A stretch of DNA of 64,000 nucleotides from Candidatus Tenderia sp. (GCA_031416075.1 JANOSY010000045.1:48131-112130), one strand, 5' to 3'. Shown: positions 2,508 through 59,968, numbered from the stretch's first letter. The notes: generated by a model from the letters alone, not told the origin. Program-made: numbers and translations.

Positions 2508-2541
2508 ATCATGACAACTGTTTATGACGCGGGTATTACAC
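2508..2541 (-). promoter_or_regulatory. Pho-box-like tandem repeat plus -10 upstream of xrtD
   Basis: Minus strand GTGTAAT-ACCC-GCGTCAT-N10-CATGAT. Confidence 0.6.
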
Positions 2542-2584
2542 ACCCCTGCTCTGAACCGGGATAGCAACGAATCAATAGCCGTTA

Positions 2585-3223
2585 TCAGGAAGAGGCAGGT
2601 CGCACCTTTCTTGCAACCAGCAACATACTTTTCCACAGATATGGAAGGCGTCCGATCCCCTGAAACTCCTGCACCTCGAACCCCTCCTCTTCAAGCAGCC
2701 GCGTCAACATGCTGCGCGAGAAGAACTTGATGTGGCCGCCATCCCATAACGGTGACAAGTGCTGGTCCCAGTGGCCGGTCACAGCGAGGGCGAGGTTTTT
2801 GAGATAACCGTGGTAAGGGGTGGTGATAATGAGCCAGCCCCCCTCCTTGAGCACCTGATTGGCAAAGCGTGGCAGGGCGCGCGGGGTATAGAGATGTTCG
2901 ATCACTTCAGTGGAGACCACTGCATCTAAATCGCGTTGCCCCAGTGCCGCTGGATCGTCATAAACACCAAGATGGCTGAATTGTATTTGCGGAGATGACT
3001 CCGCAGCAATGCGTATGCCCTCGGCATCGGCGTCACAACCCATCACATTAAAACCCGAGCGGGCGAGCGCCTTTGCAATATCACCCTTACCACAGCCCAA
3101 ATCCAGTACATTGCGCACCCCTAGGCTACGACACGCATTAACAACAGCGGGTTCAAGGTAGCCATTTGATGGAACGCTCTGATTTACAGTCCATCCGTAA
3201 TCTTCAACCCGGAGATGTGCCAT
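2585..3223 (-). CDS. Class I SAM-dependent methyltransferase
   Basis: VLDLGCGKG motif I, STEVIEHL, GGWLIITTP. Confidence 0.9.
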   Translation of the reverse strand: MAHLRVEDYGWTVNQSVPSNGYLEPAVVNACRSLGVRNVLDLGCGKGDIAKALARSGFNVMGCDADAEGIRIAAESSPQIQFSHLGVYDDPAALGQRDLDAVVSTEVIEHLYTPRALPRFANQVLKEGGWLIITTPYHGYLKNLALAVTGHWDQHLSPLWDGGHIKFFSRSMLTRLLEEEGFEVQEFQGIGRLPYLWKSMLLVARKVRPASS

Positions 3224-3244
3224 GATGACTCCTCTGTTAGATGT

Positions 3245-4147
3245 TCAATGCTTTTGTTCTGACAGCACCGCTGCTTCACCATGAGGAGAGAGTGTGCGCA
3301 TAAATTCGCGTGTAACCTGCCACCATGGTGCTGTTTCGTCCCATGCAGCCGGAGCGTTTCGCTTACCATCCCAATCGCCCCAGATCACGAGACCATCGGC
3401 GTGCTGGTGCACGGTCTCAAGCTGCAAACGCCAGTAGTCCGCAGGCAGATACTGCTGCCCCAGGATTTCATTGCGCTCGGAATATTGAGGCCACAGAAAT
3501 ACATGAACCGACTTGCCATAACGGCGTGCTTCACGCAGGTGGGCCGTGGCATATTTCACCCATGCATCCCGGTCTGGATAGTAGGTATACAACGGCAGAT
3601 AGATGGTATCGACAAGCTCAGCAAAGTCATCAAGACGAGCATTCTCGTCCTGCCATGTCCGGTAGTGGCGACTATCCCTGTTTTCCAGTGACCAATGGTA
3701 TACAACGCCCGGCAAGCGCCCAAAGAATCCAATATTCAGTCCTGGTGCTTCGTTCCTCAGCCACTGCAAGACGGTGATATATTTGGCCTGGCTCTCACGC
3801 ATCTGCGCCTCATCGCCTTCCAGCGGCCAATGTTCTATATCAATGACCACGGGCTTGCGCATGGCACGCAGATCACGCCCTAAACGGCGGACCCGATACT
3901 CGTCAGGCAAACGCTCCATCAGACGTGACGAACGCGTATCTGGCCAGAAACGTGCGGCATAGAGAATTTCGATCGGCTCTATTCCATAACTGTCTAACCT
4001 TGGTTTATTACGGTACAGGGTGGCATCAAACACTTTGAATTTCTCTGTCTCTGGATTGGTTCCTGCCACCGGCGCAGCCAGCGTCAATGTTGGCAGCCAC
4101 AATGCCAGCCACAGCAGTGCCACACGGCGATGAAGTGTGGTTATCAT
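3245..4147 (-). CDS. Secreted GH56 (hyaluronidase)-like TIM-barrel protein, paralog A
   Basis: Signal peptide; VIDIEHWP (DxE), LPLYT, VHVFLWP, DGLVIWG resemble GH56 motifs; clear paralog of 8775..9689. Confidence 0.6.
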   Translation of the reverse strand: MITTLHRRVALLWLALWLPTLTLAAPVAGTNPETEKFKVFDATLYRNKPRLDSYGIEPIEILYAARFWPDTRSSRLMERLPDEYRVRRLGRDLRAMRKPVVIDIEHWPLEGDEAQMRESQAKYITVLQWLRNEAPGLNIGFFGRLPGVVYHWSLENRDSRHYRTWQDENARLDDFAELVDTIYLPLYTYYPDRDAWVKYATAHLREARRYGKSVHVFLWPQYSERNEILGQQYLPADYWRLQLETVHQHADGLVIWGDWDGKRNAPAAWDETAPWWQVTREFMRTLSPHGEAAVLSEQKH

Positions 4148-5385
4148 GCGTACACTTCACTCAGTTGCTGACGTAGCACCTGCCGCCACGCAGAAAACGC
4201 GTAAGACTGGGTGAACCTCTGTTCAAACAAGCGCCGTGCGTTACCGCCCTGCAACACGGTGAGCTGTGGCTGATGATGAGTCATGGATCTGATCTCCCTT
4301 ACAACAGCATCAACATCACCAATGGCAGCAGCAACACCACAATGGTTCTTGCGCAGGATCAATGCTATTTCACCTTCAGTGTCACCGATAAAGAGTGTTG
4401 GACGACCAGCCGCCGCAATGCCATAAAATTTGCTGGGCACGATCAGCCCTTCCAGTTCCGGCCTTAATGAGATCACATGCAGGTCCGGAACACTCAGACT
4501 GAGCGCCAATCGTTCGCGTGGCTGATAGGGCTTGAAGATGACATTCGCCAATCCACGACGCCTGACCATCTCTTCAACCAAAGGTCGTTGCGCACCAGCG
4601 CCGATAAAAACAAAGACGATACTGGCATCACTGTGAAGCATCTCGGCAGCATTGAGCAGGGTTTCAAACTCATGGGCGCGCCCCATGTTTCCAGAGTAGC
4701 CAACGACAAACTTTCCACTCATACTCCACTCATCACGTAGCGTATTTTCCTGTGTCGCCACTGGGTGGATTGCCTCTGAGTCGGACCAGTTGTGGATGAT
4801 TGTCACCGCCTGTGGGGCCACGCCCTGCTCCAGCAATCGTGCCGCCATGCGTTCACCCAGCACAACATTATTGGCAGCTGCCCGCAATGAGACATTTCTC
4901 AGCCAGCGCAGCAACGGCGCACCTGCATGAATCGCCTTTACACCCAGCGCCTCCGCAACCTCCGGAAAGAGATCCTGCACCCAATTGATCAATGTGGCGC
5001 CGCGCAGCTTGGCTACTACCATTGCAACCACCGAGATCAGTGGTGGATCAGTCTTGGCGACGACCACATCATCACGACGCAGCGTGCGCCACAAGCACCA
5101 GGCGGCGCTGAAATAGAAGGTGAGGTAATCCATGGCGCGGCCCAGCAGAGTGCTGCGGCCAAATCGCGTGGTCCAGACACGGTGGACATACACACCGTTG
5201 CAGACCTCCATGGCCGCTAGAATCGCATCCGGATCGTCATAACGTTGACGGCTCGTTACTACATGCACCTCAGCACCATCACGGACCAAATTAGATGCAA
5301 GCTCAAATGCAAGATCACTCAAGAGCTGGCTGGTGGCCGAATGGTCTGGATAGAAATAGCGATTCACAAAAACAGTCTTAGCCAT
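4144..5385 (-). CDS. GT4 family glycosyltransferase (WcaI/WbuB-like)
   Basis: NRYFYPD, WVQDLFPE, YSGNMGRAH, VPSKFYGIAAAGRP. Confidence 0.9.
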   Translation of the reverse strand: MAKTVFVNRYFYPDHSATSQLLSDLAFELASNLVRDGAEVHVVTSRQRYDDPDAILAAMEVCNGVYVHRVWTTRFGRSTLLGRAMDYLTFYFSAAWCLWRTLRRDDVVVAKTDPPLISVVAMVVAKLRGATLINWVQDLFPEVAEALGVKAIHAGAPLLRWLRNVSLRAAANNVVLGERMAARLLEQGVAPQAVTIIHNWSDSEAIHPVATQENTLRDEWSMSGKFVVGYSGNMGRAHEFETLLNAAEMLHSDASIVFVFIGAGAQRPLVEEMVRRRGLANVIFKPYQPRERLALSLSVPDLHVISLRPELEGLIVPSKFYGIAAAGRPTLFIGDTEGEIALILRKNHCGVAAAIGDVDAVVREIRSMTHHQPQLTVLQGGNARRLFEQRFTQSYAFSAWRQVLRQQLSEVYA

Positions 5386-5947
5386 GAACTACAGCCGCCT
5401 CTTCAAAATGGCGCTGACGCACCCGCTCAGCGGGATTGCCACGATAGATCCAATTCTCATCACTATCCTTCTGCAACACGCTGCCGACTGTCAGCACACT
5501 GTTACGGCGGACACGGACACCGGGGCAGACCACACTGGCAGCACCGATCCACGCGCCATCCTCAATGACAATCTCTTTGACAATCAGCGCAAATGCCGGA
5601 TCGTTGTAGTTGTGATTGCCTGTCAGCAGATAGGAATTTTGTGAGAGGCAGACGTTATTGCCGATGCGCACCGACGCCAGATTGTCGATCCAGACCCCCT
5701 CACCAATCCAGACATGGTCACCGATCTCAAGATGCCAAGGATACTTGATGTTGACGCGCGGCTTGATCACTACACCCTTACCAATCTTGGCGCCAAAGGC
5801 ACGCAATACCACGCACTTGGTTCTCGACTCAGGCCAGAGCCATGAGTTGATAAAAATCGCATTGACGCAGTACCACAACAGACGCTTGGTAGCGCCCGCG
5901 CCGGGATGATAGTGACGGTTATCGTACTGTGCCAGGTTCACCGGCAT
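5378..5947 (-). CDS. wcaF: WcaF-like polysaccharide acetyltransferase (LbH hexapeptide repeat)
   Basis: LRAFGAKIGKGVVIKPRVNIKYPWHLEIGDHVWIGE; start set at MPVNLAQY after GGAG. Confidence 0.85.
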   Translation of the reverse strand: MPVNLAQYDNRHYHPGAGATKRLLWYCVNAIFINSWLWPESRTKCVVLRAFGAKIGKGVVIKPRVNIKYPWHLEIGDHVWIGEGVWIDNLASVRIGNNVCLSQNSYLLTGNHNYNDPAFALIVKEIVIEDGAWIGAASVVCPGVRVRRNSVLTVGSVLQKDSDENWIYRGNPAERVRQRHFEEAAVVHG

Positions 5948-6818
5948 GGTCATCTCCGATCTTGTTGACGTCGCGCCGCTGACGCTCATGCTCAAACAGC
6001 TTGGCATCCACCAGAAAGCGATACCAGAACCCCTGCAGGAAGTGGAAAATAAGCCCTTCCTTGCCATCGAGAAAACCAAGACGGATGAAGTAGCGGTAGA
6101 GAAAATAGCAGAGCGGCCTGACAAATAGCGGTACCCGCGCATAGACGTTATCCTTCATCCAGCGCCGAGACTGCGCCTGCGAACCGCCCAGGGATGCCGT
6201 CAACCGTTCACCGGTGCCAGTTTCTGAACGCTTGGCAAGCACATCCAGCACTTCACGGCTGGCGTATTTATTGTGTTTGTCGGTCCAGAAGGTCAGGTCT
6301 TTGTTGTTCTTATCGATCAGGTCGGCATTGATCCTGATAGCGCGACCACTGTTGAGAACGATATGCTCATCCATCCACAGCGCCTCGCAACGGCCAACCC
6401 CATTACGAAACACACGTAATAGCCAGGTAGGATAGTAACCACCATGTTTGATCCAGCGTCCCATGAAATAGACACGGCGGCGAAGATAGATTCCAGAGAC
6501 CACTGGAGGAGCCTCTTCAAGATAGCTCTGGAGTTCTGTCACGAGTTCAGGGGTCAGCTCTTCGTCAGCGTCCATGCGCATGATCCACTCTGTCTGGAAA
6601 TCGAAATGATCCAGCCCCCAGTTGAATTGATCCGCATAGGTAGTCCACTTGCGGCTCGCGACCTGGACACCATAGCGCTGACATATCTCCACCGTATTAT
6701 CATCGCTGCAGGAATCGACTACATAGATATCTCGCGTCAACGGCAACAATGATTCCACACACTTGGCGATGTTCCGCTCCTCGTTGTGGGTAAGAATCAG
6801 CACGGAAACCCTGTTCAT
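5919..6818 (-). CDS. GT2 family glycosyltransferase
   Basis: VSVLILTHNEE, VVDSCSDD, RMDADE; start set at MNRVSV. Confidence 0.9.
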   Translation of the reverse strand: MNRVSVLILTHNEERNIAKCVESLLPLTRDIYVVDSCSDDNTVEICQRYGVQVASRKWTTYADQFNWGLDHFDFQTEWIMRMDADEELTPELVTELQSYLEEAPPVVSGIYLRRRVYFMGRWIKHGGYYPTWLLRVFRNGVGRCEALWMDEHIVLNSGRAIRINADLIDKNNKDLTFWTDKHNKYASREVLDVLAKRSETGTGERLTASLGGSQAQSRRWMKDNVYARVPLFVRPLCYFLYRYFIRLGFLDGKEGLIFHFLQGFWYRFLVDAKLFEHERQRRDVNKIGDDHAGEPGTVR

Positions 6819-6864
6819 TTTCACAACAACCTTTTTGAATTCCATAACAACCATGCCACCCTGA

Positions 6865-7419
6865 TCAGCAGGGATTCCCCAACGGTGCGCCATACCTTGA
6901 TGGTTGCTGCAACATCAATTCATGCTGCCTGATCCCTTCATCGTCGAAACGATAACGCAACACCCTGGCCGGAATACCGGTGACAATGGCGTAAGGCGGC
7001 ACATCCCTGGTCACCACCGCACCTGCCCCTACAATCGCACCGTTACCGATAGTCACGCCACGCATGATGATTGCGCCATGACCAATCAAAACATCGTGCC
7101 CTATATTCGTCACCACCGGCGCTGGTCTTCCCGAAAACCGGATAGGCACACCGGCAACATCGAAGCGATGATCATTGCCAGTAACGACAACGTAAGATGA
7201 AAGACTGGTGTAGTTGCCGATTTTCACTTGTGGCGCAATCTCTACACAAGGACCAAGGTAGACGTAGTCGCCAGCCGCGAATCCAGGACCATGAATCACC
7301 ACATCCCAGGCAACATGAAAGCCCTTGCCAACAGTGGCGCTACGGTAACGAGTTCGTAACAACAGCTGGATGCGTATGGCCTTATAGAACTCGCGCAGAT
7401 GATCAAGACCGGAATTCAT
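6865..7419 (-). CDS. CatB/Vat-like O-acetyltransferase (LbH)
   Basis: IGHDVLIGHGAIIMRGVTIGNGAIVGAGAVVTRDVPPYAIVTGIPARV; ATGA overlap with upstream stop. Confidence 0.85.
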   Translation of the reverse strand: MNSGLDHLREFYKAIRIQLLLRTRYRSATVGKGFHVAWDVVIHGPGFAAGDYVYLGPCVEIAPQVKIGNYTSLSSYVVVTGNDHRFDVAGVPIRFSGRPAPVVTNIGHDVLIGHGAIIMRGVTIGNGAIVGAGAVVTRDVPPYAIVTGIPARVLRYRFDDEGIRQHELMLQQPSRYGAPLGNPC

Positions 7420-8582
7420 GGTCTGCCACGCGCCACTCTGGATGTTTCGCACACAGCCCGCACAAATGTCTCTACCTGACGGTGAGGATTATATTTTTCA
7501 AATATGACAGTTTTGCATGCGTCGGCCATGGCATTCCTGACAGAGACAGGAAATATTGCCTGCTCCATCTTTGCAGCCAAGTCTTCAACATCATCGTAAC
7601 GGTAGAAAAATCCAGTCTTACCCTCAATCACCGCCTCCCACTCGGGGAAGTGGTGCTCAACACGATCATGGATTAATACCGGCGTGCCAAAGACCAGTGC
7701 GTGCATGATGGAGAGTCCAGCGCCTGACGGGATTACCGAAAGATCACTGGCGCCGACCACCAGCCCCAGGTAGCGTTCGTCATAACTCTCACCAAGGAAA
7801 TGAACCAGATCGGCGATATTTAACCGGGCAGCGAGTTGTTCCAGATTGGAACGTTCACCGCCTTCACCCACCAGCGCCACATGAACACGGCGGCCACGCT
7901 GCGCCAGCCGCGCCACCGCCTCCAGCAGCAGATCGAGACGTTTAACCGGCTGCAAGCGCCCGGTGAATACCACCAGCCCCTCGCCCTGCGCAACCCCCAG
8001 TGAACTACGGAAAACGTTGATCTGATCATCACTCTGCTCCGCTGCAATCTCTCTCTGCGTATCAAAGTCCAGCGAGTTATAAACCACATAGAGCGAGTTC
8101 ACATCAAACCCCTTACGCTGCAACAGATCGCGGGCATGTTCACCATAGAGCAGCTGTCCGGCGGCGAGGCGATACAAAGAGCGCCTTATCCACCACTTTG
8201 GCCCCTTCTCGTCACTCAACAAACCTTGCCCCCATAGCAACACTGGAATCCGCAACACTTTTCCAGTGATCAGCAAGGCCCATGCAGTGAGTGAATAGGG
8301 TGAGCCAAGCGCTATTATTGCGTCAGGGCGCTCCCTCAGCATCATCTTCAATGCCTGTGGCTGCCAATAGAGTTCAGGAAGATATGGCAGGCGAATAATA
8401 TAGGTCTGCGCATAGACGGCGCGGATGGCTCGGCCTTCATCGCCGCGCAACGTCTTAAGATAGGGTGTATCCGGCTCTGGATCGGCCACCACCTTGAAAT
8501 GGACATCATCGCGCTTGGATAACAACTCAAAAATGCGCGCTCGATAGTGAGGGATGCAGTTGTATTGAATAATCGTGTTCAT
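7416..8582 (-). CDS. GT4 family glycosyltransferase
   Basis: PHYR, FTGRLQPVKRLD, GLSIMHALVFGTPV; start set at MNTIIQ. Confidence 0.88.
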   Translation of the reverse strand: MNTIIQYNCIPHYRARIFELLSKRDDVHFKVVADPEPDTPYLKTLRGDEGRAIRAVYAQTYIIRLPYLPELYWQPQALKMMLRERPDAIIALGSPYSLTAWALLITGKVLRIPVLLWGQGLLSDEKGPKWWIRRSLYRLAAGQLLYGEHARDLLQRKGFDVNSLYVVYNSLDFDTQREIAAEQSDDQINVFRSSLGVAQGEGLVVFTGRLQPVKRLDLLLEAVARLAQRGRRVHVALVGEGGERSNLEQLAARLNIADLVHFLGESYDERYLGLVVGASDLSVIPSGAGLSIMHALVFGTPVLIHDRVEHHFPEWEAVIEGKTGFFYRYDDVEDLAAKMEQAIFPVSVRNAMADACKTVIFEKYNPHRQVETFVRAVCETSRVARGRP

Positions 8583-8688
8583 TGTTTTGGCTGAACCGTA
8601 TCGACGGCAGTCAGTTCCCTCGTCAACTAAAGAAACGCCCATGACCATCAACATCGCCACCCGCGACAGTCACAGACATAAACTCGAT

Positions 8689-8722
8689 ATTCTCTAACAA
8701 AGGGGTTACGGTTTTGTGACCA
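8689..8722 (-). promoter_or_regulatory. Pho-box-like tandem repeat plus -10, internal EPS promoter
   Basis: Minus strand TGGTCAC-AAAA-CCGTAAC-N10-GAGAAT. Confidence 0.55.
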
Positions 8723-8774: not shown

Positions 8775-9689
8775 TTACTGGCGCGCCTGATTTTGTCTCT
8801 TCAAAAAGCTCTTGGTAACCTTCCACCATGGCGCCTCGTTGTTCCATTTCGCAGGTTTTCCATCACCCCAGCCGCCCCAGATGACGATTCCATCGGCATA
8901 ACGCCGCACCGTTTCCAGCTCCATTCGCCAATAGTCATCACCAATATAGCGCCCGCCGAGCAGCAGGTTGGAGTCATGAAATTGCGGCCATAAAAAGACG
9001 TATACGGGTTTGCCATAAGATTTAGCCGCCTTGATTTGTGAAATGGCCATGCGGCGCCAACCTTCCTGGTCGGTATAGAACGTATACAATGACGGGAACA
9101 GCACATCGACCTCCGCCGCGAGCGGCGCAATAGCCTCGTTTTCGGATTGCCACTGCTTGAAGGAGGAACTCGCCGGATCATTTATCGCGCGCCAATAATC
9201 CACTACTGGTAATACTCCATAGTAGCCCAAGCGGTAATTTTTTCCGGTGGCGCGAAAGCGTCGTATCACCTCAGTATATTTCTCAAGGTTGCGCGCTACT
9301 TCATCTCCATCACCGTTGAGAGGCCAATGCTCTATATCAATGCATATGACCGTGGCATCGGCAGCGATTTGCGCCACGGCAGCCCGGATTGTTGCGTCAT
9401 CAGGCACTCTGTGAAGATCTTTGGCACCCTTCCATAGCTCTGCCTGATAGATCACAGGCAGCGGTCGCAGGCCATAAGAAGATAGGTCTGGTTTGCCGCT
9501 AAATAGAGTCGCGTCGAACACTGGTATCCCACCTGATACGGGCGACGGGCTCAAATAGCCACCGCCACTCTTTTCCATGCCAGCACCAACTGCCGACATG
9601 GCGAACGCCGCCTGTAAGAACACACACATAGCCAGCCAGAAAGCAAGGCGGCCATTATTTATGTTGGATTTTATTGAATACTGAATCAT
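8775..9689 (-). CDS. Secreted GH56 (hyaluronidase)-like TIM-barrel protein, paralog B
   Basis: N-terminal hydrophobic segment; CIDIEHWP, GYYGVLP, LFPSLY, PVYVF, DGIVIWG. Confidence 0.65.
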   Translation of the reverse strand: MIQYSIKSNINNGRLAFWLAMCVFLQAAFAMSAVGAGMEKSGGGYLSPSPVSGGIPVFDATLFSGKPDLSSYGLRPLPVIYQAELWKGAKDLHRVPDDATIRAAVAQIAADATVICIDIEHWPLNGDGDEVARNLEKYTEVIRRFRATGKNYRLGYYGVLPVVDYWRAINDPASSSFKQWQSENEAIAPLAAEVDVLFPSLYTFYTDQEGWRRMAISQIKAAKSYGKPVYVFLWPQFHDSNLLLGGRYIGDDYWRMELETVRRYADGIVIWGGWGDGKPAKWNNEAPWWKVTKSFLKRQNQARQ

Positions 9690-9700
9690 GGCTTATGTAG

Positions 9701-12326: not shown

Positions 12327-12354
12327 ATTTCTGTCTCACACCAATATTCATTAC

Positions 12355-14283: not shown

Positions 14284-14361
14284 TGTATTTAAAACCGCCT
14301 AGTAATGCTGCTATCAACCGCAATGGTGCTTGAAGAAACAAACGCCATCTTGACGTAAATT

Positions 14362-15135: not shown

Positions 15136-15145
15136 ATAAAATCCT

Positions 15146-16897: not shown

Positions 16898-16910
16898 TTC
16901 AGATCACTTC

Positions 16911-18732: not shown

Positions 18733-18766
18733 AGCATAACGTTCCAAGATGACCCTTTTGTGACAC
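18733..18766 (-). promoter_or_regulatory. Pho-box-like tandem repeat plus -10, main EPS operon promoter
   Basis: Minus strand GTGTCAC-AAAA-GGGTCAT-N10-TATGCT; palindrome ATTACA-TT-TGTAAT immediately downstream (18712-18725). Confidence 0.65.
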
Positions 18767-19842: not shown

Positions 19843-19887
19843 ACTGTATAGCAGTGAGATTTCACAGGCATTTCCTTTGTATTACAT
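19843..19887 (-). promoter_or_regulatory. Triple Pho-box-like repeat plus -10 upstream of RHH gene
   Basis: Minus strand ATGTAAT-ACAA-AGGAAAT-GCCT-GTGAAAT-N10-TACAGT. Confidence 0.55.
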
Positions 19888-20010: not shown

Positions 20011-20077
20011 CCGTAATAATACATTTACGCAAACTTAACCGGATATTCACCCGTTGTTAATCATGGCCCTTTAAAGT
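20011..20077 (+). promoter_or_regulatory. Degenerate 11-bp-pitch repeat array plus -10 upstream of VPLPA gene
   Basis: CCGTAAT-AATA-CATTTAC-GCAA-ACTTAAC-CGGA-TATTCAC-CCGT-TGTTAAT-N10-TAAAGT. Confidence 0.45.
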
Positions 20078-26250: not shown

Positions 26251-26284
26251 ATTGTGCCTGCCCTATATTTCATCCCGGTTACGG
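26251..26284 (-). promoter_or_regulatory. Pho-box-like repeat plus -10 upstream of exbB
   Basis: Minus strand CCGTAAC-CGGG-ATGAAAT-N10-CACAAT. Confidence 0.5.
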
Positions 26285-31427: not shown

Positions 31428-31472
31428 ATTATGCCCACGTATTATTACTGGAGGAATACACCTATATTAAAC
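31428..31472 (-). promoter_or_regulatory. Triple Pho-box-like repeat plus -10 upstream of TIGR03790-like gene
   Basis: Minus strand GTTTAAT-ATAG-GTGTATT-CCTC-CAGTAAT-N10-CATAAT. Confidence 0.55.
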
Positions 31473-43588: not shown

Positions 43589-43633
43589 ATTATGCGCGAC
43601 ACGTATTACATGGCAGTTACATCTCTGTTACAC
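43589..43633 (-). promoter_or_regulatory. Triple Pho-box-like repeat plus -10 upstream of tpsB
   Basis: Minus strand GTGTAAC-AGAG-ATGTAAC-TGCC-ATGTAAT-N10-CATAAT. Confidence 0.75.
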
Positions 43634-46393: not shown

Positions 46394-46487
46394 AACGGTG
46401 GTAACCCAGCCATCTTGGCGCTTCCATGTTCACACCTAGATCTGTGGCTTTCCGACCCCGCCTCGCAACGGGAGTGGCAGTTCCGTC
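46394..46487 (-). ncRNA. Cyclic di-GMP-I (GEMM) riboswitch in the leader of the VPLPA/PstS-like operon
   Basis: Minus strand GACGG-AACT-GCCACT-CCCGTT-GCGA-GGCGGG-GTCGGAAAGCCACAGATCT...AGATGGCTGGGTTACC-A-CCGTT: P1, GNRA-capped P2 and P3 as in the Vc2 aptamer. Confidence 0.8.
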
Positions 46488-46573
46488 TTACTGTCACCAA
46501 CTACGTGGCACCTCATGCACCCCGATATGCCGGACCTCATATCCGGCTGCCTGAATTTCCAGCGGCGACGGCA

Positions 46574-46618
46574 ATTGTTGACCAACAAGATTTCGCCGTG
46601 ATTAATGCAATGTTAATT
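46574..46618 (-). promoter_or_regulatory. Degenerate Pho-box-like array plus weak -10 upstream of riboswitch
   Basis: Minus strand AATTAAC-ATTG-CATTAAT-CACG-GCGAAAT-N10-AACAAT. Confidence 0.4.
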
Positions 46619-46704: not shown

Positions 46705-46829
46705 GGGTAAGCGTTTTTTGCGTAACCCACCAAGCCTGCGAAGCACACAATCTTTCTTTCTTCATCCACTCGATACCACCCCCGCATTACATCCGTGTGA
46801 CAGTAATCGAGACGCTCAAACAGCCCCCG

Positions 46830-46858
46830 CTGTCATCTTTCTGTAGTGAAACTGTCAT
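46830..46858 (+). promoter_or_regulatory. Near-consensus Pho box array upstream of T2SS operon
   Basis: CTGTCAT-CTTT-CTGTAGT-GAAA-CTGTCAT; no convincing -10 at N10. Confidence 0.7.
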
Positions 46859-46908
46859 AGCCTTGCCTTCCCGAACAAGACCATTCACAGCAACAGACCG
46901 GAATCATC

Positions 46909-47331: not shown

Positions 47332-47336
47332 TAGCC

Positions 47337-51017: not shown

Positions 51018-51024
51018 TGCAGCG

Positions 51025-52597: not shown

Positions 52598-54492
52598 TCT
52601 GTTTTGCACGAAGTACATTATTTGTCACCCTGCTCTCCGCGTTGATGATGACAGGCTGCGCAACCACCACCGATCACTCTACAAATGAGAGGGCAGAGAG
52701 CGCCAGCGAACGCACCGATACCATGCGCCAGCGCGACCTGTCGCTGTTGCGCTGGCAGAGCATCGCCGAGACCGCTCGCAATGGCGCTGACCTCGACAGT
52801 GCTGAGTCCGCCTACCGCAACATGCTGGCCATCGACCCTGCCAATCGCCGCGCCAGTTATGGCCTGGAGCAGCTGGCCAACGAACACCGCCATCGCAACA
52901 TCATCGCCGTAGCGGAGAAGCAGCTACAGCAGGGCGATATGGCCACGGCGCAGGAGAGTCTGCGCCCGGTGCTGATCGAAAATCCAAAACAGCGCCAGGC
53001 GTTGGCGCTGCAACGGCAGATTGAAGAGCAGCAAGTGAAAGTCAGCTATCGTCCGGTGCTCAATGCCAGTGCGCGCAAGCCCATCACCCTTGAGTTCCGC
53101 GATGCCAGTCTGCGCTCTATCTTTGAGATGATCTCGCGCCTCTCCAGCATCAACTTCATCTTCGACAAGGAGGTGCGGCCAGAGCTGAAGGCGACGATCC
53201 TGATGAAGGATGGCACCATCGAAGAGGCGGTGAAGATGCTGCTGCTCACCAACCAGCTGGAGCAGAAGATACTCAACGGCAATACGGTACTGATCTATCC
53301 CAATACACCGGCGCGCAGCCGCGACTATCAGGAGCTGGTGGTGAAGAGTTTTTATCTCGGCAATGCCGATGTTAAACAGACCCTCAACATGATCAAGACC
53401 ATCATCAAGAGCAAGGATGTCTATCTTGATGAACGGCTCAATCTGCTGGTGGTGCGCGACACACCCGAAGCAATCGCCATGGCGGAAAAACTGATCGCGG
53501 CGCAGGATCTGGCAGAGCCGGAGGTGATGCTGGAGATGGAGGTGTTGGAGGTCAGCACCAGCCGTCTCTCCGAACTCGGCATCAGCTATCCTGACCAGAT
53601 GGGATTTGGTATCGTGGGCGGCCTCACCGGTGCGCAAACGGGCGGCGTGCTGTCTCTCAACCAGCTTCACAACATCACTGACGACATGGTCAAGGTGACG
53701 TTGCCGGATCCGGCGATACTGCTCAAACTCAGCAACACCGACACCAATAGCAACCTGCTGGCCAATCCCCGCATCCGGGTGAAGAACCGCGAGAAGGCCA
53801 GGATCCATATCGGTGAAAGAGTACCCGTTATCACCACCACCTCCACCGCCAATGTCGGCATCTCCGAGTCGGTCAACTATCTTGAAGTAGGACTCAAGCT
53901 CAATGTCGAACCCGATATCCATCTTGATAATGATGTCGCCATCAAGGTCGGGCTTGAGGTCAGCAACATCATAGACACCATCACCACCACCTCGGGTTCA
54001 AAAACCTATCGCCTCGGCACCCGCACCGCCGAGACCACCCTGCGCCTCAAGGATGGCGAGACCCAGGTGCTGGCGGGGCTGATCCAGGATATGGATCGCA
54101 AGTCGGCGCGGAAGGTGCCGCTGCTCGGTGATATTCCGCTGCTTGGCCGCCTCTTCTCCAGCGAGGGCAATGACAAAAGCAAGACCGAGATCATGCTGCT
54201 GATCACACCGCACATCATCCGCAACCTGGAGCGCCCCGCCGCCAATATTACTGAATTCATGTCGGGGACCGAGGGCAGTGTCGGTGCCACCCGTCTCACG
54301 CTGGCACCCTCTTCAGGCAGTGTCTCTGTCTCTGCAATGCCCGTCAGCCACGATGCTCCGGCAACGATGGAGAGTGGTGTTGCCAGCACACCGCAGGAAC
54401 AAGGGCCACAGCCTTATGCAGCGCCGGTGTTGCCGCAGGTGCCACAGGTCGAGCAGGGGCAGGACCTGAACGAGCCTGTGCCTGAAGAGTAA
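52594..54492 (+). CDS. gspD: T2SS secretin, lipoprotein with N-terminal TPR-like region
   Basis: Lipobox MTGC, ITLEFRDASL, LLANPRIRV, IGERVPV, LKDGETQVLAGLI, KVPLLGDIPLLGRLFS, ITPHII. Confidence 0.95.
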   Translation: MICFARSTLFVTLLSALMMTGCATTTDHSTNERAESASERTDTMRQRDLSLLRWQSIAETARNGADLDSAESAYRNMLAIDPANRRASYGLEQLANEHRHRNIIAVAEKQLQQGDMATAQESLRPVLIENPKQRQALALQRQIEEQQVKVSYRPVLNASARKPITLEFRDASLRSIFEMISRLSSINFIFDKEVRPELKATILMKDGTIEEAVKMLLLTNQLEQKILNGNTVLIYPNTPARSRDYQELVVKSFYLGNADVKQTLNMIKTIIKSKDVYLDERLNLLVVRDTPEAIAMAEKLIAAQDLAEPEVMLEMEVLEVSTSRLSELGISYPDQMGFGIVGGLTGAQTGGVLSLNQLHNITDDMVKVTLPDPAILLKLSNTDTNSNLLANPRIRVKNREKARIHIGERVPVITTTSTANVGISESVNYLEVGLKLNVEPDIHLDNDVAIKVGLEVSNIIDTITTTSGSKTYRLGTRTAETTLRLKDGETQVLAGLIQDMDRKSARKVPLLGDIPLLGRLFSSEGNDKSKTEIMLLITPHIIRNLERPAANITEFMSGTEGSVGATRLTLAPSSGSVSVSAMPVSHDAPATMESGVASTPQEQGPQPYAAPVLPQVPQVEQGQDLNEPVPEE

Positions 54493-54495
54493 TTA

Positions 54496-54987
54496 ATGGT
54501 GATCTCTTCACGTCGAACCACAACAGGCTTCACCCTTATCGAACTGGTGATGACTGTTGCTATTCTCGGTCTGCTGGCGACCATGGTAGTTCCCGTTGCA
54601 CAACTGGCCGCGCAACGCGACAAGGAGAAGGATCTACGTAGCGCACTGCGTGAAATCAGAGGCGCGCTCGATGCCTACAAGATAGCTGTCGATCAGGGCA
54701 AAATTGCCAGGTCGGCGGTATCGGCCTCTGGCTATCCAGAATCGCTGGGCGATCTTGTTGAAGGAGTCGATGACCTCGGCAACGCCAAGAGTGGCAAACG
54801 CTATTTTCTGCGGCGTATCCCTCGTGATCCTTTTACGCACGATGTAAACCTGAGCGCCGAAGAGAGCTGGGGGTTGCGCAGTTACAGCAGCCCGCCCGAT
54901 GATCCGCGCGAAGGTGATGATGTCTACGATGTCTATTCGCTCAGCAACGGGACCGGCCTGAATGGCATCCCTTACCGGGAGTGGTAA
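54496..54987 (+). CDS. T2SS pseudopilin (GspG-like minor)
   Basis: [35 protein letters not shown]. Confidence 0.88.
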
Positions 54988-55379
54988 TGATGAACCTACG
55001 CAGAGTGCGTCACTGCATCGGCTTCACCCTCATCGAACTGCTGGTGGTGATGGCAATCATCGCCACACTGCTAACCCTGGCGGTGCCGCGTTATTTCAAC
55101 AGCCTGGAAAAATCGAAAGAGGCGGTGTTGCGCCAGGACCTGGCCACTATGCGCGATGCCATCGACAAATATGTTGCTGACAAGGGCAAATATCCGGAGT
55201 CGCTGGAGAGTCTGGCAACAGAGAAGTATCTGCGTCACATTCCTGTCGATCCACTCACTGATCTCAATGACAGCTGGTTGACCAGCAGCCCGGATGACAC
55301 TTCATTGACAGGTGTGAGTGATGTACACAGCGGCGCTGAAGGCCAGAGCCATGATGGAACCGCCTATGGTGAGTGGTAA
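54987..55379 (+). CDS. T2SS pseudopilin (GspG-like minor)
   Basis: G/FTLIELLVVMAII, RDAIDKY, YLRHIPVDP, DVHSGA. Confidence 0.88.
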   Translation: MMNLRRVRHCIGFTLIELLVVMAIIATLLTLAVPRYFNSLEKSKEAVLRQDLATMRDAIDKYVADKGKYPESLESLATEKYLRHIPVDPLTDLNDSWLTSSPDDTSLTGVSDVHSGAEGQSHDGTAYGEW

Positions 55380-55854
55380 CCGCAGGCAGTCCGGCTTCAC
55401 CTTCCTCGGCCTGCTCTTTTTCATCAGCGTGATGGGGATCGGCATGGCGGCCACCGGCGTGGTCTGGCGGCAGGATGCACAGCGTGACAAGGAGCGCGAA
55501 CTGCTCTTCATCGGCGCCGAGTTCCGCCGCGCTATCGTGCTCTATTACGAGCGTACACCGGGTGCGGTGAAATCCTATCCAAAAAATCTGGATGAGCTGC
55601 TCAAGGACAAACGCCATGTCACGACACAGCGCTATCTGCGCCGCATCTATCGCGATCCAATGACGGGTGGAATGGAGTGGGGAGTGGTGCGCCGCCCCGA
55701 CGGGACTATCATTGGCGTCTTCAGTCTTGCAAAAGATACGCCTATCAAGCGAGCTGGTTTTGCAGCGGAGGAGAAACTGTTTCAGTCGGCAAAACAATAT
55801 TCTGACTGGAAGTTTGTTTACCAGCAACAGATTGCAGCAGTCACCAAAAAATAG
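55366..55854 (+). CDS. T2SS pseudopilin lacking E5 (GspK-like tip candidate)
   Basis: G/FTFLGLL (no Glu5), REKE-like RDKERELL, YLRRIYRDPMT, YSDWKF. Confidence 0.8.
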   Translation: MVSGNRRQSGFTFLGLLFFISVMGIGMAATGVVWRQDAQRDKERELLFIGAEFRRAIVLYYERTPGAVKSYPKNLDELLKDKRHVTTQRYLRRIYRDPMTGGMEWGVVRRPDGTIIGVFSLAKDTPIKRAGFAAEEKLFQSAKQYSDWKFVYQQQIAAVTKK

Positions 55855-57809: not shown

Positions 57810-57843
57810 ATTTTATGCTGCGTAGATTACAGCCGTATGAACA
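57810..57843 (-). promoter_or_regulatory. Pho-box-like repeat plus -10 upstream of GlyGly-CTERM gene
   Basis: Minus strand TGTTCAT-ACGG-CTGTAAT-N10-TAAAAT. Confidence 0.7.
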
Positions 57844-57904: not shown

Positions 57905-58160
57905 AGGCTTTCAATTGATGATTCTGAGTAGGTAAAGATTGCAGCCATACATCCGGACTTTCGATGAAGCTTTCGCTCCTGTCCCTGATGGAATCCGCTG
58001 ATCGAGTCCTCAACAAAGCCACGCACTTTATGTGCGACGCCGGGGACAGGTTTGCTCGATCAAGGTCTGACCAGTCTCGCCATCATCTCATGATTGCCTG
58101 TGCAATCGGTGGTGCTCCGCCTTCAACGCGTTGTATTCCGGTTTTACTCTACTGCTCTGA
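57905..58160 (-). ncRNA. Predicted bridge/seekRNA region of the IS1111 element (boundaries approximate)
   Basis: Stem GATCGAG/CTCGATC encloses CCCCGGC and GGCTTTG (match to target) around hairpin CGCAC-ATAAA-GTGCG; ATGTAT and CCATCA resemble the donor junction. Confidence 0.6.
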
Positions 58161-58166
58161 TTACAC

Positions 58167-59205
58167 TCAGGCAGCCGTAGCTGTCTGGGCATAATCAGAT
58201 TGGAATATCCTCTCCTTTGCCAGGAGTGCCCAGACAATTCGGGCATTTTTGTTCGCCAGGGCAACAGCGGCTACATTCTTGTTGCGCCGTGCCATGAATG
58301 AGCTTTCTCAACCAGCTGTCCGGTGCCGCTTTTTTCTCCGCAAGCCGGGTCACGGCTCGTGCTCCGTGAATCAACAAGGTGCGTAGGTAGGTATCTCCGC
58401 GTTTGCTGATGCCAAGTAATCTCTGCTTGCCGCCGCTTGAACACTGCCTGGGAACCAGCCCCATCCACGCCGCCATCTGACGACCATTCTTGAACTCGCT
58501 GGCATCACCCACAGTCGCCACGAGGGCGCTGGCCGTGATCGGACCGATCTCAGGAATATCCGCCAGCTTCATACTGGCAACGTTGTTGGTATGCCACGTC
58601 CGTATCTGCGCTTCCAACTCTTTGGCCTGGCGATCCATCACTTTCAGGTTGTCGGCCAACCGTTCGAGCAGTCTCCGCATCGTATCAGGCATTCCATTCT
58701 CGGCATCTTCCAGTATCTCCGGTATGCGCTTGGCGATGACATCTACCCTTTTCGGAATAATTATGCCGAACTCAGAAAGTAGCCCCCTAATCTGGTTGCC
58801 TTGTGCCGTTCGTGCCTTGACGAAACCCTGCCTCGCCCGATGCACTGAAAGGATGGCTTCTTGCTCGACATTTTTTATCGGCACAAAGCGCATCGTGGGG
58901 CGACCCATGGCTTCGCAAATCGCTTCTGCATTCGCTACGTCATTCTTGTTTGTCTTCACATACGGTTTCACGAACCGCGGCACCATCAACTTGGCCGTGT
59001 ACCCATACTCGCCAAGCTTCCTCGTCCAGTGATGCGCACTGCCACAGTGCTTCCATGCCTATCAAACAGGGTTCCAGATTCGCAAAAAATTTCCCCTATC
59101 TTTCCGTTTCAACGGTTTCCGCAGCACAGTGTTGCCCTGCTCATCCACGCCATGAAACTGAAATACTTCCTTTGCCAAGTCGATGCCAATTGTCATGATT
59201 TTCAT
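58167..59205 (-). pseudogene. IS110-family recombinase, at least three frameshifts
   Basis: MKIMTIGIDLAKEVFQFHG / GMEA-CGSAHHW / KNDVANAEAICEA / SSGG..ISKRGD / RRNKNVA are in different frames. Confidence 0.88.
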
Positions 59206-59364
59206 TTCAGACACTCCTCTCTGTATAGTGGTCATTACTGCAACCGCTACTTTGGCACTCTGATGCCGTATCGGAAAGTGGGCGTCCATACCATTAAAGC
59301 CGGGGGCTTATTGGGTGAGCGCCTCAAAGGCGCCATTAAACCGTGAACCGCCCAAGGCGGTTGA

Positions 59365-59796
59365 TCATACTCCGAGCTTCATCTGGTCATAGCACTCATC
59401 TTCCGACTCTTGGTTCTTGATGTAGGCTCTTACCATCGCCTCATCAAGCCCAAATGTCGAAACAAAGTAGCCACTCGCCCAGAAATTTTCGCCTGTAAAA
59501 TTTCTTTCACGGCCACCAAACTTACGAGCCACCTGAATGGCACTCTTGCCTTTGATAAACCCCACCATGTTCGACACCGCATACTTCGGTGGAATACTCA
59601 GACACATATGGACATGATCACCCATCAGGTGACCCTCAACAATCGTACACTTTTTGTGTTTTGCCAGCTCATGGAATATCTCTCCAAAATGCCGCTTCAA
59701 CACTCCAAAAATACGCTTCTTTCGTCGTTTGGGGATAAACACCACATGGTATTTACAATCCCAACGCGTATGACTCAGACTTTGATACTCTTTCAT
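59365..59796 (-). CDS. tnpA: IS200/IS605 TnpA (Y1 HUH transposase)
   Basis: CKYHVVFIPK, DHVHM (HUH), IKGKSA, FWASGYFVST, YIKNQ; start codon sequestered in hairpin 59793-59839. Confidence 0.93.
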   Translation of the reverse strand: MKEYQSLSHTRWDCKYHVVFIPKRRKKRIFGVLKRHFGEIFHELAKHKKCTIVEGHLMGDHVHMCLSIPPKYAVSNMVGFIKGKSAIQVARKFGGRERNFTGENFWASGYFVSTFGLDEAMVRAYIKNQESEDECYDQMKLGV

Positions 59797-59923
59797 TGTG
59801 AACCTCGTTCTCTTGGCAGAGACCCCAGATTCACAATGACCGCCGTATAGGTCAAACCTAGGTGAGTCCCCCGGCAGAGCCGGGGGTTTACCTCACTTAA
59901 TTAATGTTCAACATCCAGCCCTT

Positions 59924-59968
59924 TTGTCACAAAAATGTAATCGCTGTGTAACCTTCATTGGTTCTAAT
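59924..59968 (+). promoter_or_regulatory. Triple Pho-box-like repeat plus -10 upstream of phoB paralog (autoregulation)
   Basis: TTGTCAC-AAAA-ATGTAAT-CGCT-GTGTAAC-N10-TCTAAT. Confidence 0.75.

What the first reader, a model, noticed from the sequence alone, without database searches (positions are those of the whole stretch)
2508..59968. One promoter grammar unites the whole island: a putative private PhoB-type regulon
Seen: twelve intergenic sites carry 7-mers at exact 11-bp pitch (core GT(C/A)A(T/C), sometimes GAAAT), always oriented with the downstream gene. In eleven of them a -10-like hexamer follows after exactly 10 nt: xrtD (2508-2541), internal GT (8689-8722), wza operon (18733-18766), RHH gene (19843-19887), VPLPA (20011-20077), exbB (26251-26284), TIGR03790-like (31428-31472), tpsB (43589-43633), riboswitch leader (46574-46618), GlyGly-CTERM gene (57810-57843) and phoB (59924-59968). 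The twelfth is a near-consensus triple box before gspG (46830-46858). Established: PhoB binds tandem 11-bp repeats placed 10 bp upstream of -10, in place of -35. Inference: EPS, exosortase, TPS, TonB motor and T2SS are switched on together by the PhoB-like protein encoded at the island edge. Some sites are degenerate and were found by eye.
Basis: partly seen in the sequence, partly recalled or inferred. Interest (0 to 1): 0.88.

Follow-up and report, generated by a model that had tools for sequence, protein, structure and literature searches.

The report
Island wired into the phosphate-starvation regulon
Nearly every operon of a 60-kb surface-polysaccharide and secretion island starts with the DNA signature of the bacterial phosphate-starvation switch, and the island carries its own unusual second copy of that switch protein.

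Summary
All twelve sites are at the stated coordinates. Eleven have 11-bp-pitch NTGTMAY-type units, a 10-nt gap and a -10-like hexamer.

A model trained only on six non-island Pho promoters (pstC, phoB-phoR and pstS here; phoB in three relatives) finds 8 hits (score >=14) in the window's intergenic DNA. Other intergenic DNA predicts 0.12 and shuffles give 0.04.

In two congeners, nine sites are 74-100% identical while their flanks are 34-81% identical.

The same grammar precedes pstC, phoB-phoR, pstS and a PhoX-like phosphatase gene, so these are ordinary Pho boxes, not a private code.

Support varies by site:
- VPLPA is unsupported.
- The RHH and riboswitch-leader sites are conserved but have non-canonical GAAAT boxes.
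- gspG has top-ranking boxes but no -10.

The island-edge regulator is a real second PhoB: 325.5 bits against a cutoff of 296.2, with no adjacent kinase. I found it only in the island-bearing congeners. Its clade replaces the invariant base-contact Thr194 with Ala (21 of 21 clusters, against 0 of 99 other close PhoBs).

Phosphate-controlled T2SS/TPS/ExbBD clusters (P. aeruginosa) and EPS genes (S. meliloti) are already known. I call this a new variant of a known kind. No expression or binding data exist.

The parts
2508..2541 (-). Pho-box promoter of xrtD (2 units + N10 + CATGAT). The true xrtD start is probably ATG 2458, not 2512.
   Evidence: Canonical-model score 22.2. 88% and 74% identical in G001 and G004, against 60% and 47% for the flanks. 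Start codons. XrtD scores 557 bits against TIGR04152.
8689..8722 (-). Candidate Pho-box promoter before the glycosyltransferase/acetyltransferase block 2585-8660.
   Evidence: Canonical model 14.7 but leave-one-out only 4.0. The sequence is not conserved in G001 (29%), although G001 has its own GTTTAAC-N4-GTTTAAC pair at that place (score 12.8).
18733..18766 (-). Pho-box promoter of the wza-type export / chain-length / tyrosine-kinase / flippase block 8775-18682.
   Evidence: Canonical model 20.7. 97% and 76% identical, against 81% and 61% for the flanks. Gene families.
19843..19887 (-). Conserved three-unit promoter (TGTAAT, GGAAAT, TGAAAT + N10 + TACAGT) before a small gene (likely start ATG 19804) and the VPLPA-CTERM gene 18768-19289.
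   Evidence: 98% and 89% identical, against 57% and 53% for the flanks. Leave-one-out 10.2. It fails the canonical model at -1.6.
20011..20077 (+). Not supported.
   Evidence: Leave-one-out 7.0 with 1.5 chance hits expected. Canonical model 7.1. 57% identical in G001 against 46% for the flank.
26251..26284 (-). Pho-type promoter (CGTAAC, TGAAAT + N10 + CACAAT) of exbB(DUF2341-LamG-MotA/ExbB)-exbD-222 aa-Porin_5-224 aa, spanning 20981-26214.
   Evidence: Leave-one-out 12.6 and canonical model 12.6. 88% and 91% identical, against 65% and 56% for the flanks. Domains.
31428..31472 (-). Pho-box promoter of the TIGR03790-family gene block 27554-31392.
   Evidence: Canonical model 15.5. Scores 17.9 with a PWM that did not include it. 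No ortholog in G001 or G004, so conservation cannot be tested.
43589..43633 (-). Triple Pho box (TGTAAC, TGTAAC, TGTAAT) + N10 + CATAAT before tpsB-tpsA (31685-43561).
   Evidence: Two exact dimers. Triple-box score 19.9. Canonical model 15.9. 96% and 78% identical, against 35% and 34% for the flanks.
46574..46618 (-). Conserved promoter with degenerate units (TTAAC, TTAAT, GAAAT) + N10 + AACAAT, about 80 nt upstream of the riboswitch.
   Evidence: Leave-one-out 13.8. 87% identical in G001 against 54% for the flank. It fails the canonical model at 2.8.
46397..46488 (-). c-di-GMP-I riboswitch in the leader of genes 45413-46285 and 43836-45260.
   Evidence: Rfam RF01051, 48.5 bits against a gathering score of 35.
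46830..46858 (+). Triple Pho box (CTGTCAT, CTGTAGT, CTGTCAT) before gspG and the T2SS operon 46909-55854. There is no recognisable -10 at any gap of 6-14 nt.
   Evidence: Third-best triple-box score in the genome, 21.8. 29 of 29 bases identical in G001 although G001 has lost most of the T2SS. -10 scan.
57810..57843 (-).
   Evidence: Canonical model 22.1. 91% and 76% identical, against 45% and 41% for the flanks. Domains.
59924..59968 (+). Triple Pho box (TGTCAC, TGTAAT, TGTAAC) + N10 + TCTAAT before the second phoB.
   Evidence: Second-best triple-box score in the genome, 25.0. Canonical model 21.3. 98% and 82% identical, against 53% and 46% for the flanks. Also kept in metagenome loci L137 and L140.
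59992..60690 (+). Second PhoB ('PhoB2'), with no kinase gene beside it. Likely start ATG 60001.
   Evidence: TIGR02154 at 325.5 bits against a cutoff of 296.2. 53% identical to the genome's PhoB1, which sits beside phoR and pstS on contig C24. Recognition helix reads RAVDVHIRRLRQ, with Ala at the Thr194 position.

Best explanation
The sites are Pho boxes. They are tandem 11-bp-pitch binding units for a phosphorylated PhoB dimer or oligomer, placed 10 nt upstream of a sigma-70 -10 hexamer in place of a -35 element.

They make the island a block of the cell's phosphate-starvation (Pho) regulon. The island comprises XrtD/VPLPA-CTERM exopolysaccharide genes, a two-partner secretion pair, an ExbB/ExbD/porin unit, a type II secretion system and its likely cargo. 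The same grammar drives pstC, phoB-phoR and pstS; a PhoX-like phosphatase gene carries the boxes.

The island also carries its own Pho-box-driven PhoB paralog (PhoB2), which has no kinase gene beside it.

Inferred mechanism: when phosphate is scarce, PhoR phosphorylates PhoB1. PhoB1 turns on pst, phoBR and phoB2. PhoB2 is then phosphorylated by cross-talk and reinforces or takes over activation of the island promoters.

Shown here: the motif, its spacing, its enrichment, its conservation, its identity with the canonical Pho promoters, and the PhoB-class nature of both regulators.

Inferred only: binding, induction by low phosphate, and which PhoB acts.
For: (1) Architecture: units, a 10-nt gap and a -10 in 11 of 11 reader sites, and in pstC, phoB1 and the PrsT-like promoter.

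(3) The reverse test: a model trained only on six canonical non-island promoters scores xrtD 22.2, GlyGly 22.1, phoB2 21.3, wza 20.7, tpsB 15.9, TIGR03790 15.5, internal GT 14.7 and exbB 12.6. That is 8 window hits >=14 against 0.12 expected from other intergenic DNA and 0.04 from shuffles. In the genome-wide list, 14 loci score >=14, are intergenic and lie within 100 nt of a downstream start. Nine are in or abutting the island, 3 are training promoters and 2 are others.

(4) Footprints: in G001 and G004 the sites of xrtD, wza, RHH, exbB, tpsB, GlyGly and phoB2, and in G001 also the riboswitch-leader and gspG sites, are 74-100% identical. The 80 nt upstream are 34-81% identical.

(5) The -10 lies 24-51 nt before the likely start codons.

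(6) PhoB2 scores above the PhoB cutoff. It keeps the acidic pocket, Asp, Thr and Lys of the receiver domain (alignment; roles recalled) and Val197, Arg201 and Arg219 (contacts from a passage of PMC3973317).

(7) PhoB2 and the island travel together. Both are in G000, G001 and G004, and neither was found in G003, which is 98% complete.

(8) Precedent: the P. aeruginosa vreAIR-hxc T2SS-lapA-pdtA-phdA-pdtB-exbB2D2-tonB4 cluster is low-phosphate/PhoB controlled, with PhoB gel shifts on three of its promoters (passages of PMC4971064 and PMC7035377). S. meliloti EPS II genes carry PHO boxes (passages of review PMC3233446).
Against: - There are no expression, transcription-start or binding data.
- Three of the 11 promoter-type sites fail the canonical model (RHH -1.6, riboswitch leader 2.8, VPLPA 7.1). 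VPLPA is also barely conserved.
- gspG has boxes but no -10, so it cannot work exactly like the others.
- The canonical model rests on only six promoters (12 half-sites).
- The footprint genomes are two congeners and are not independent.
- Conservation shows constraint, not PhoB binding.
- Intergenic DNA was defined by a crude ORF caller that made errors in the window.
- PhoB2 has lost the Thr194 base contact, so it may not read these boxes the way PhoB1 does.
Confidence: 0.75

Rival explanations
1. Private or tiered regulon. PhoB2 has a shifted DNA specificity, caused by Thr194Ala and Lys204Gln on the recognition helix, and is the real and necessary activator of some or all island promoters. 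The GAAAT-box promoters (RHH, exbB, riboswitch leader) would be the clearest cases. PhoB1 would only switch on phoB2.
For: - Ala at the Thr194 position occurs in 21 of 21 protein clusters that are >=76% identical to PhoB2, and in 0 of the 99 next-best PhoB homologs. It also occurs in 0 of 40 PhoBs from relatives.
- Thr194 is one of four base-specific contacts in the PhoB-DNA structure (passage of PMC3973317).
- The GAAAT units are kept in all three genomes, and I saw none in the canonical promoters read.
- PhoB2 is co-inherited with the island.
- Two PhoB-class genes in one genome are rare: 4 of 401 class genomes sampled. The four copies from the other three two-PhoB genomes whose recognition helix I could read (of six loci) keep Thr.
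Against: - Most island boxes are indistinguishable from canonical ones and score as high as pst and phoB promoters under a canonical-only model.
- TGTAAY units occur at phoB promoters of relatives without PhoB2.
- Arg201, Val197 and Arg219 are kept.
- Too few half-sites exist to show any systematic island-versus-canonical difference.
- No kinase for PhoB2 is evident, so it probably depends on PhoR in any case.
Confidence: 0.17
2. PhoB2 modulates or antagonises rather than activates. It would occupy Pho boxes, or form mixed dimers with PhoB1, and damp or delay island (or pst) expression, or tie it to another signal.
For: - The loop before the recognition helix reads WGGS(I/V)(C/F)IGER in PhoB2, where the canonical PhoBs listed (P0022-P0030) read WG(G/S)NVY(I/V)(E/D)ER. 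That this loop is where PhoB touches sigma-70 is my recollection and comes from no call.
- PhoB2 has no adjacent kinase.
Against: - Trp and Gly of the loop are kept.
- The I-G pair of that loop is shared with this genus's own PhoB1.
- The gene sits in and travels with an island whose promoters need an activator, because they lack a -35.
- Nothing here tests activation.
Confidence: 0.05
3. The boxes serve another OmpR-family regulator, or are AT-rich promoter features without a dedicated factor, and the likeness to Pho boxes is coincidental.
For: - The genome encodes about eleven full-length OmpR/PhoB-family regulators.
- The RHH and riboswitch-leader units deviate from the canonical half-site.
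Against: - Cross-retrieval works in both directions between island sites and the pstC, phoB and pstS promoters.
- The spacing is fixed at 10 nt.
- The boxes themselves are selectively conserved.
Confidence: 0.03

Closest known systems
E. coli-type Pho box promoters (pstS, phoB)
   Same: Two or more 7-bp direct repeats at 11-bp pitch, with the last one 10 nt upstream of the -10 and replacing the -35. The phoB gene drives itself from such a box (passages of PMC4971064). The E. coli consensus is recalled.
   Different: The local consensus is TGTCAT (distal) plus TGTAAY (proximal). Arrays of 3 units are common. Some island units read GAAAT.
P. aeruginosa PUMA3 / Hxc / PdtAB / ExbB2D2-TonB4 low-phosphate cluster
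   Same: One chromosomal block joins a type II secretion system, a two-partner secretion pair and an ExbB-ExbD unit. All are induced by phosphate starvation through PhoB, with Pho boxes at several promoters (passages of PMC4971064 and PMC7035377).
   Different: In P. aeruginosa the relay is an ECF sigma factor (VreI) working with PhoB, and the boxes lie upstream of a -35/-10 pair. Here no sigma factor gene is present. The boxes replace the -35, the island adds an exosortase/EPS system, and the relay candidate is a second PhoB. I did not test gene-by-gene homology to the P. aeruginosa cluster.
S. meliloti galactoglucan (EPS II) genes under PhoB
   Same: Exopolysaccharide operons with PHO boxes, activated under phosphate limitation together with a cluster-encoded helper regulator (passages of review PMC3233446).
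   Different: The polysaccharide machinery differs. The helper there is WggR (MarR-type, recalled), not a PhoB paralog.
PrsK/PrsR control of PEP-CTERM/XrtA systems
   Same: A dedicated response regulator associated with an exosortase/EPS locus. This genome has a PrsR above cutoff elsewhere, on contig C38.
   Different: PrsR is an NtrC-type regulator. That it is sigma-54-dependent is recalled. The XrtD island shows Pho boxes and a PhoB paralog instead.

Membership tests
PhoB-dependent (Pho box) promoter | Two or more 7-bp direct repeats at 11-bp pitch resembling the organism's canonical Pho half-site. | tested here: met
   Met for xrtD, wza, tpsB, GlyGly, phoB2, TIGR03790, internal GT, exbB and gspG under a half-site model trained on pstC, phoB and pstS promoters only. 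Not met for RHH, the riboswitch leader and VPLPA.
PhoB-dependent (Pho box) promoter | The proximal repeat ends 10 nt upstream of a -10 hexamer and takes the place of the -35. | tested here: met
   A gap of 10 nt gives the best -10 in 11 of 11 sites. gspG fails.
PhoB-dependent (Pho box) promoter | Bound by phosphorylated PhoB. | not testable with these tools
   Needs gel-shift, DAP-seq or ChIP-seq assays.
PhoB-dependent (Pho box) promoter | Transcription is induced by phosphate limitation and starts about 7 nt after the hexamer. | not testable with these tools
   No RNA data could be examined.
PhoB (TIGR02154) | Whole-protein score above the curated cutoff. | tested here: met
   325.5 bits against 296.2. 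The genome's other PhoB scores 345.7.
PhoB (TIGR02154) | Receiver domain with the phospho-acceptor Asp and the conserved acidic, Thr and Lys residues. | tested here: met
   A gap-free alignment to PhoB1 and to E. coli PhoB receiver structures shows the DE, LLDWMLP, MVTA and KPF motifs kept. The residue roles are recalled.
PhoB (TIGR02154) | Base-specific contacts Thr194, Val197, Arg201 and Arg219. | tested here: not met
   Val, Arg and Arg are kept. Thr194 is Ala in all 21 clusters of the clade. The contact list comes from a passage of PMC3973317.
PhoB (TIGR02154) | Encoded with its kinase PhoR. | tested here: not met
   The neighbours are dsbC and IS elements here, and dsbC in G001. The only PhoR above cutoff is beside PhoB1 on C24.
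VPLPA-CTERM / XrtD exosortase system | XrtD together with VPLPA-CTERM substrates. | tested here: met
   XrtD scores 557 bits against a cutoff of 400. The genome's only two ORFs ending in a VPLPA tail are at 18768-19289 and 20113-20784 (motif search of my own).

The most novel reading that the evidence does not exclude
PhoB2 founds a specificity-shifted PhoB subfamily (Thr194Ala, Lys204Gln). It rides on a mobile surface/secretion island and forms a two-tier cascade: canonical PhoB turns on phoB2 through the TGTCAC unit, and PhoB2 then reads relaxed boxes (TGAAAT/GGAAAT) that canonical PhoB reads poorly. Part of the island would then be truly private while still keyed to phosphate.
Probability: 0.17. 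Interest if true: 0.7.

Novelty: new variant of a known kind. Interest (0 to 1): 0.5.

Why it matters
- The analysis yields a concrete, testable regulon for an uncultured-type gammaproteobacterium. Under phosphate scarcity the cell would rebuild its surface and secretion apparatus: exosortase-dependent polysaccharide, a giant two-partner-secretion protein, a type II secretion system with cargo, and an ExbBD-porin unit.
- It points to a phosphate link for an XrtD/VPLPA-CTERM system. I made no literature search on how these systems are regulated.
- It identifies a small natural PhoB subfamily that has changed one of only four base-reading residues. That is a ready-made case for studying how a duplicated or imported response regulator shares or splits a DNA code with the resident one.

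Tried and rejected
- RNA evidence: no RNA holder was listed for window 41900-47400.
- First metagenome DNA pattern (the phoB2 triple box) found nothing. A back-translated PhoB2 helix pattern found 4 short loci, of which 2 held the promoter.
- A full-column PWM from six canonical promoters was overfitted and gave erratic scores. I replaced it with a pooled half-site plus -10 model.
- TGTAAY as a PhoB2-specific box: rejected, because relatives without PhoB2 use TGTAAC or TGTAAT at their phoB promoters.
- The extra exact dimer at 46786-46802 (-) is not conserved in G001 and scores only 11.2. I treat it as chance.
- PhoB2 origin: a quick tree puts its clade (support 100, stem 0.48) outside the family's PhoB1 clade, with an unresolved position and a long-branch warning. 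It also shares a rare Gly in the pre-helix loop with its own genus's PhoB1. Duplication versus import is left open.
- Literature searches for 'two PhoB', 'PhoB paralog', 'PhoB2', 'second PhoB' and 'orphan PhoB', and for PhoB with T194A, found no paper on such a paralog. The 'PhoB2' hits in the one paper I opened were superscript reference numbers; the other listed hits were judged from titles and abstracts only. Subscription journals are not covered.
- Earlier notes of this scan held nothing on this locus.
- Complex prediction and structure prediction were not used. No claim here depends on a fold or a complex.


Full report
**What is in the window.**
The window is the last 64 kb of a 112-kb contig of a 3.49-Mb draft genome. 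Family scans give the following map.
- An XrtD exosortase (557 bits).
- Glycosyltransferases and acetyltransferases, a flippase-like protein, an amidotransferase, a tyrosine autokinase, a chain-length determinant and a Wza-type exporter.
- The genome's only two ORFs with a VPLPA-type C-terminal tail.
- An ExbB-like protein with DUF2341 and LamG domains, followed by ExbD, a 222-aa ORF and a Porin_5 protein.
- A TIGR03790-family protein.
- A TpsB/TpsA pair; the TpsA is 3,401 aa.
- Two genes behind a c-di-GMP-I riboswitch (Rfam 48.5 bits).
- A type II secretion operon.
- A beta-propeller/Ig-like protein.
- IS elements.
- A PhoB-class regulator at the right edge.

**The observation.**
Cut into 11-nt units, each of the eleven promoter-type sites ends with 6 nt and then a hexamer. 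The hexamers are CATGAT, GAGAAT, TATGCT, TACAGT, TAAAGT, CACAAT, CATAAT, CATAAT, AACAAT, TAAAAT and TCTAAT.

I scanned gaps of 6-14 nt between the proximal 7-mer and a TATAAT-like hexamer. The 10-nt gap is best in 11 of 11 sites. gspG has none.

With likely start codons corrected for xrtD (ATG 2458) and the small RHH-type gene (ATG 19804), the hexamers lie 24-51 nt before the start codons.

**Is it more than chance?**
- Exact TGTMAY-N5-TGTMAY occurs 9 times in the genome, 5 of them in the window.
- Leave-one-out PWMs were compared with a crude set of 1,742 intergenic segments totalling 298,003 bp, of which 3,178 bp lie in the window. This makes phoB, GlyGly and xrtD individually strong (0.01-0.05 chance hits expected in the window's intergenic DNA). 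tpsB, the riboswitch leader and exbB are moderate (0.15-0.25). TIGR03790, RHH and wza are weak (0.4-0.7). VPLPA and the internal-GT site are not distinguishable from chance (1.5 and 5).
It pools the half-sites and the -10 of six canonical promoters: pstC, phoB1 and pstS of this genome, and phoB of G006, G007 and G017.
- That model scores xrtD 22.2, GlyGly 22.1, phoB2 21.3, wza 20.7, tpsB 15.9, TIGR03790 15.5, internal GT 14.7, exbB 12.6, VPLPA 7.1, riboswitch leader 2.8 and RHH -1.6.
- The window's intergenic DNA holds 8 hits >=14 in 7,470 positions. The rest of the genome's intergenic DNA holds 9 in 574,938 positions, 3 of which are the training sites. That predicts 0.12.
- Three hundred dinucleotide-preserving shuffles of the window's intergenic DNA give a mean of 0.04 and a maximum of 1.
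- A boxes-only triple-unit scan of the whole genome ranks pstS first, phoB2 second, gspG third and tpsB seventh.

**What the motif is.**
Its best intergenic hits outside the window are as follows.
- A 751-aa PstC gene (25.8).
- The canonical phoB, which is followed by phoR and pstS (18.9).
- A PrsT-like TPR gene immediately left of the window (18.5).
- pstS (17.6).

The boxes-only triple-unit scan also finds boxes about 60 nt before a PhoX-like alkaline phosphatase gene.

In the family, phoB promoters of genomes that have only one PhoB read CTGTCATAAT-CCTGTAAC-N10-TCTAAT. This is the island grammar. The motif is therefore the organism's ordinary Pho box.

In the genome-wide list, 14 loci score >=14, are intergenic and lie within 100 nt of a downstream start. 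Nine are in or abutting the island, three are training promoters and two are others. If the prediction holds, the island is the largest part of this cell's Pho regulon.

**Conservation.**
Two of four congeners carry the island: G001 on one contig at 66-88% DNA identity, and G004 in pieces. G003 is 98% complete and has neither the island nor the second PhoB. G002 is 84% complete and uninformative.

I anchored upstream regions on the start of each downstream gene and aligned them. Each entry below gives site identity, then identity of the 80 nt upstream.
- xrtD: 88%/60% (G001) and 74%/47% (G004).
- wza: 76%/61% and 97%/81%.
- RHH: 89%/53% and 98%/57%.
- exbB: 88%/65% and 91%/56%.
- tpsB: 78%/34% and 96%/35%.
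- Riboswitch leader: 87%/54% (G001 only).
- gspG: 100%/53% (G001 only).
- GlyGly: 76%/41% and 91%/45%.
- phoB2: 82%/46% and 98%/53%.
- VPLPA: 57%/46%.
- Internal GT: 29%/45%. G001 has its own GTTTAAC-N4-GTTTAAC pair with a -10 at that place.
- The TIGR03790 gene has no ortholog to compare.

In G001 the T2SS has decayed to remnants, yet the gspG boxes and the first 41 codons of gspG remain.

In G001, G004 and two metagenome contigs, the beta-propeller gene (or its counterpart) and phoB2 are divergent neighbours sharing one intergenic region with both sites. In this genome an IS110-family and an IS200-family element lie between them.

**Site-by-site verdict.**
- Supported by both the canonical model and conservation: xrtD, wza, tpsB, GlyGly, phoB2 and, more weakly, exbB.
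- Supported by the canonical model only: TIGR03790 and internal GT.
- Boxes strong and conserved but no -10: gspG.
- Strongly conserved but with GAAAT/TTAAY units that the canonical model rejects: RHH and the riboswitch leader.
- Unsupported: VPLPA.
- One further good site lies just outside the window, before the PrsT-like gene. It is conserved in G001.

**The regulators.**
The genome has two proteins above the PhoB cutoff. PhoB1 sits with the only PhoR above cutoff and with pstS. PhoB2 is the window's gene and has no kinase beside it here or in G001.

The two are 53% identical without gaps. The PhoB2 DNA-binding domain aligns without gaps to E. coli PhoB structures.

How rare a second PhoB is:
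- In the 17 family genomes, a second PhoB occurs only in G000, G001 and G004.
- In a sample of 401 genomes of the class, four have two. That tally includes the unpublished genomes G055, G133, G277 and G287, each with one match. Nothing else here rests on them.

The recognition helix:
- PhoB2's helix reads RAVDVHIRRLRQ where canonical PhoBs read RTVDVHIRRLRK.
- The Thr is invariant in 40 of 40 PhoBs from relatives and in the 99 next-best database homologs.
- All 21 protein clusters >=76% identical to PhoB2 have Ala and Gln.
[quoted passage not shown] PhoB2 therefore keeps three of the four base-specific contacts and has lost one.
- Of the six PhoB loci in the other three two-PhoB genomes, the four whose recognition helix I could read keep Thr.

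A quick tree places the PhoB2 clade on a long stem outside the family's PhoB1 clade, with its position unresolved.

**How it most likely works.**
Shown: the promoter grammar, its enrichment, its conservation, its identity with the canonical Pho promoters, and two PhoB-class regulators, one of them island-borne and itself behind a triple Pho box.

Inferred:
- Low phosphate activates PhoR and PhoB1.
- PhoB1 activates pst, phoBR and phoB2.
- PhoB2, phosphorylated by cross-talk, adds to or takes over activation of the island.
- The operon behind the riboswitch would then answer to phosphate and c-di-GMP together.

Whether PhoB2 reads a relaxed box (the GAAAT promoters) is open. TGTAAY is not its signature, because single-PhoB relatives use it.

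**Comparison with what is known.**
- The promoter type is the classical Pho box (passages of PMC4971064).
- A chromosomal block joining a T2SS, a TPS pair and ExbBD under phosphate/PhoB control is known in P. aeruginosa, where an ECF sigma factor is the relay.
- EPS genes with PHO boxes are known in S. meliloti.
- What differs here is full coverage of an XrtD/VPLPA exosortase island by such promoters, and a co-inherited PhoB paralog with an altered recognition helix.
- My searches found no paper on such a paralog. I read passages only and opened no supplements.

**Verdict.**
This is a Pho-regulon island, not a private code, with an unusual second PhoB whose role is untested.

Noticed in passing
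window 46397-46488 (-): A c-di-GMP-I riboswitch (48.5 bits) lies about 80 nt downstream of a conserved Pho-type promoter. The two genes behind it (45413-46285, and 43836-45260 with a weak, sub-threshold PBP_like_2 match) may integrate phosphate and c-di-GMP signals.
   Followed up: partly
window 20804-20912 and 46668-46760: Short repeat elements, about 30-90 nt in the matches, have dozens of 86-100% identical copies scattered over all four congeners. They look like REP/MITE-type elements and sit in island intergenic regions.
   Followed up: no
L029 (G001:C5) about 4989-5111, against window 46909-55854: G001 has lost almost the whole T2SS operon. Only fragments matching window 48717-48960 and 55789-55854 remain. 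It keeps the triple Pho box at 29 of 29 bases and the first 41 codons of gspG.
   Followed up: partly
window 57964-59850 and 61427-62461: IS110-family and IS200-family elements separate the beta-propeller gene from phoB2, which are direct divergent neighbours in G001 and G004. An IS630-family element abuts the dsbC start. In metagenome relatives a Pho-box-like site (score 16.9) lies 3' of phoB2 on the opposite strand, at L140:2371-2404, about where a dsbC promoter would be; the gene there was not checked. That sequence is absent from this window.
   Followed up: partly
G000:C12:20646-20701 (-): An array of about five TTTCAT-type units at 11-bp pitch lies 18 nt before a Fic-domain gene. It is one of two high-scoring Pho-like promoters outside the island and the pst/pho genes.
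   Followed up: partly
G000:C56:32807-32836 (-): Three Pho-type units lie about 60 nt before a PhoX-like alkaline phosphatase gene, which is followed by a single-domain response regulator.
   Followed up: partly
G000:C45:47339-47372 (-), just left of the window: A PrsT-like TPR gene (806 aa) has a good Pho-box promoter that is conserved in G001. The island and its grammar therefore extend beyond the window's left edge.
   Followed up: yes
window 46786-46802 (-): An exact TGTCAC-N5-TGTAAT dimer lies opposite the gspG boxes. It is not conserved in G001 and scores low with a -10 included, so it is probably chance.
   Followed up: yes
window 2458-2512 and 19804-19843: The longest-ORF starts of xrtD and of the small RHH-type gene overlap their own -10 hexamers. 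Downstream ATGs at 2458 and 19804 fit homolog alignments and ribosome-binding sites better.
   Followed up: partly
G000:C38:3674-5005: A PrsR-type PEP-CTERM-box response regulator scores above cutoff elsewhere in the genome. The cell probably runs a second exosortase system under a different regulator.
   Followed up: no
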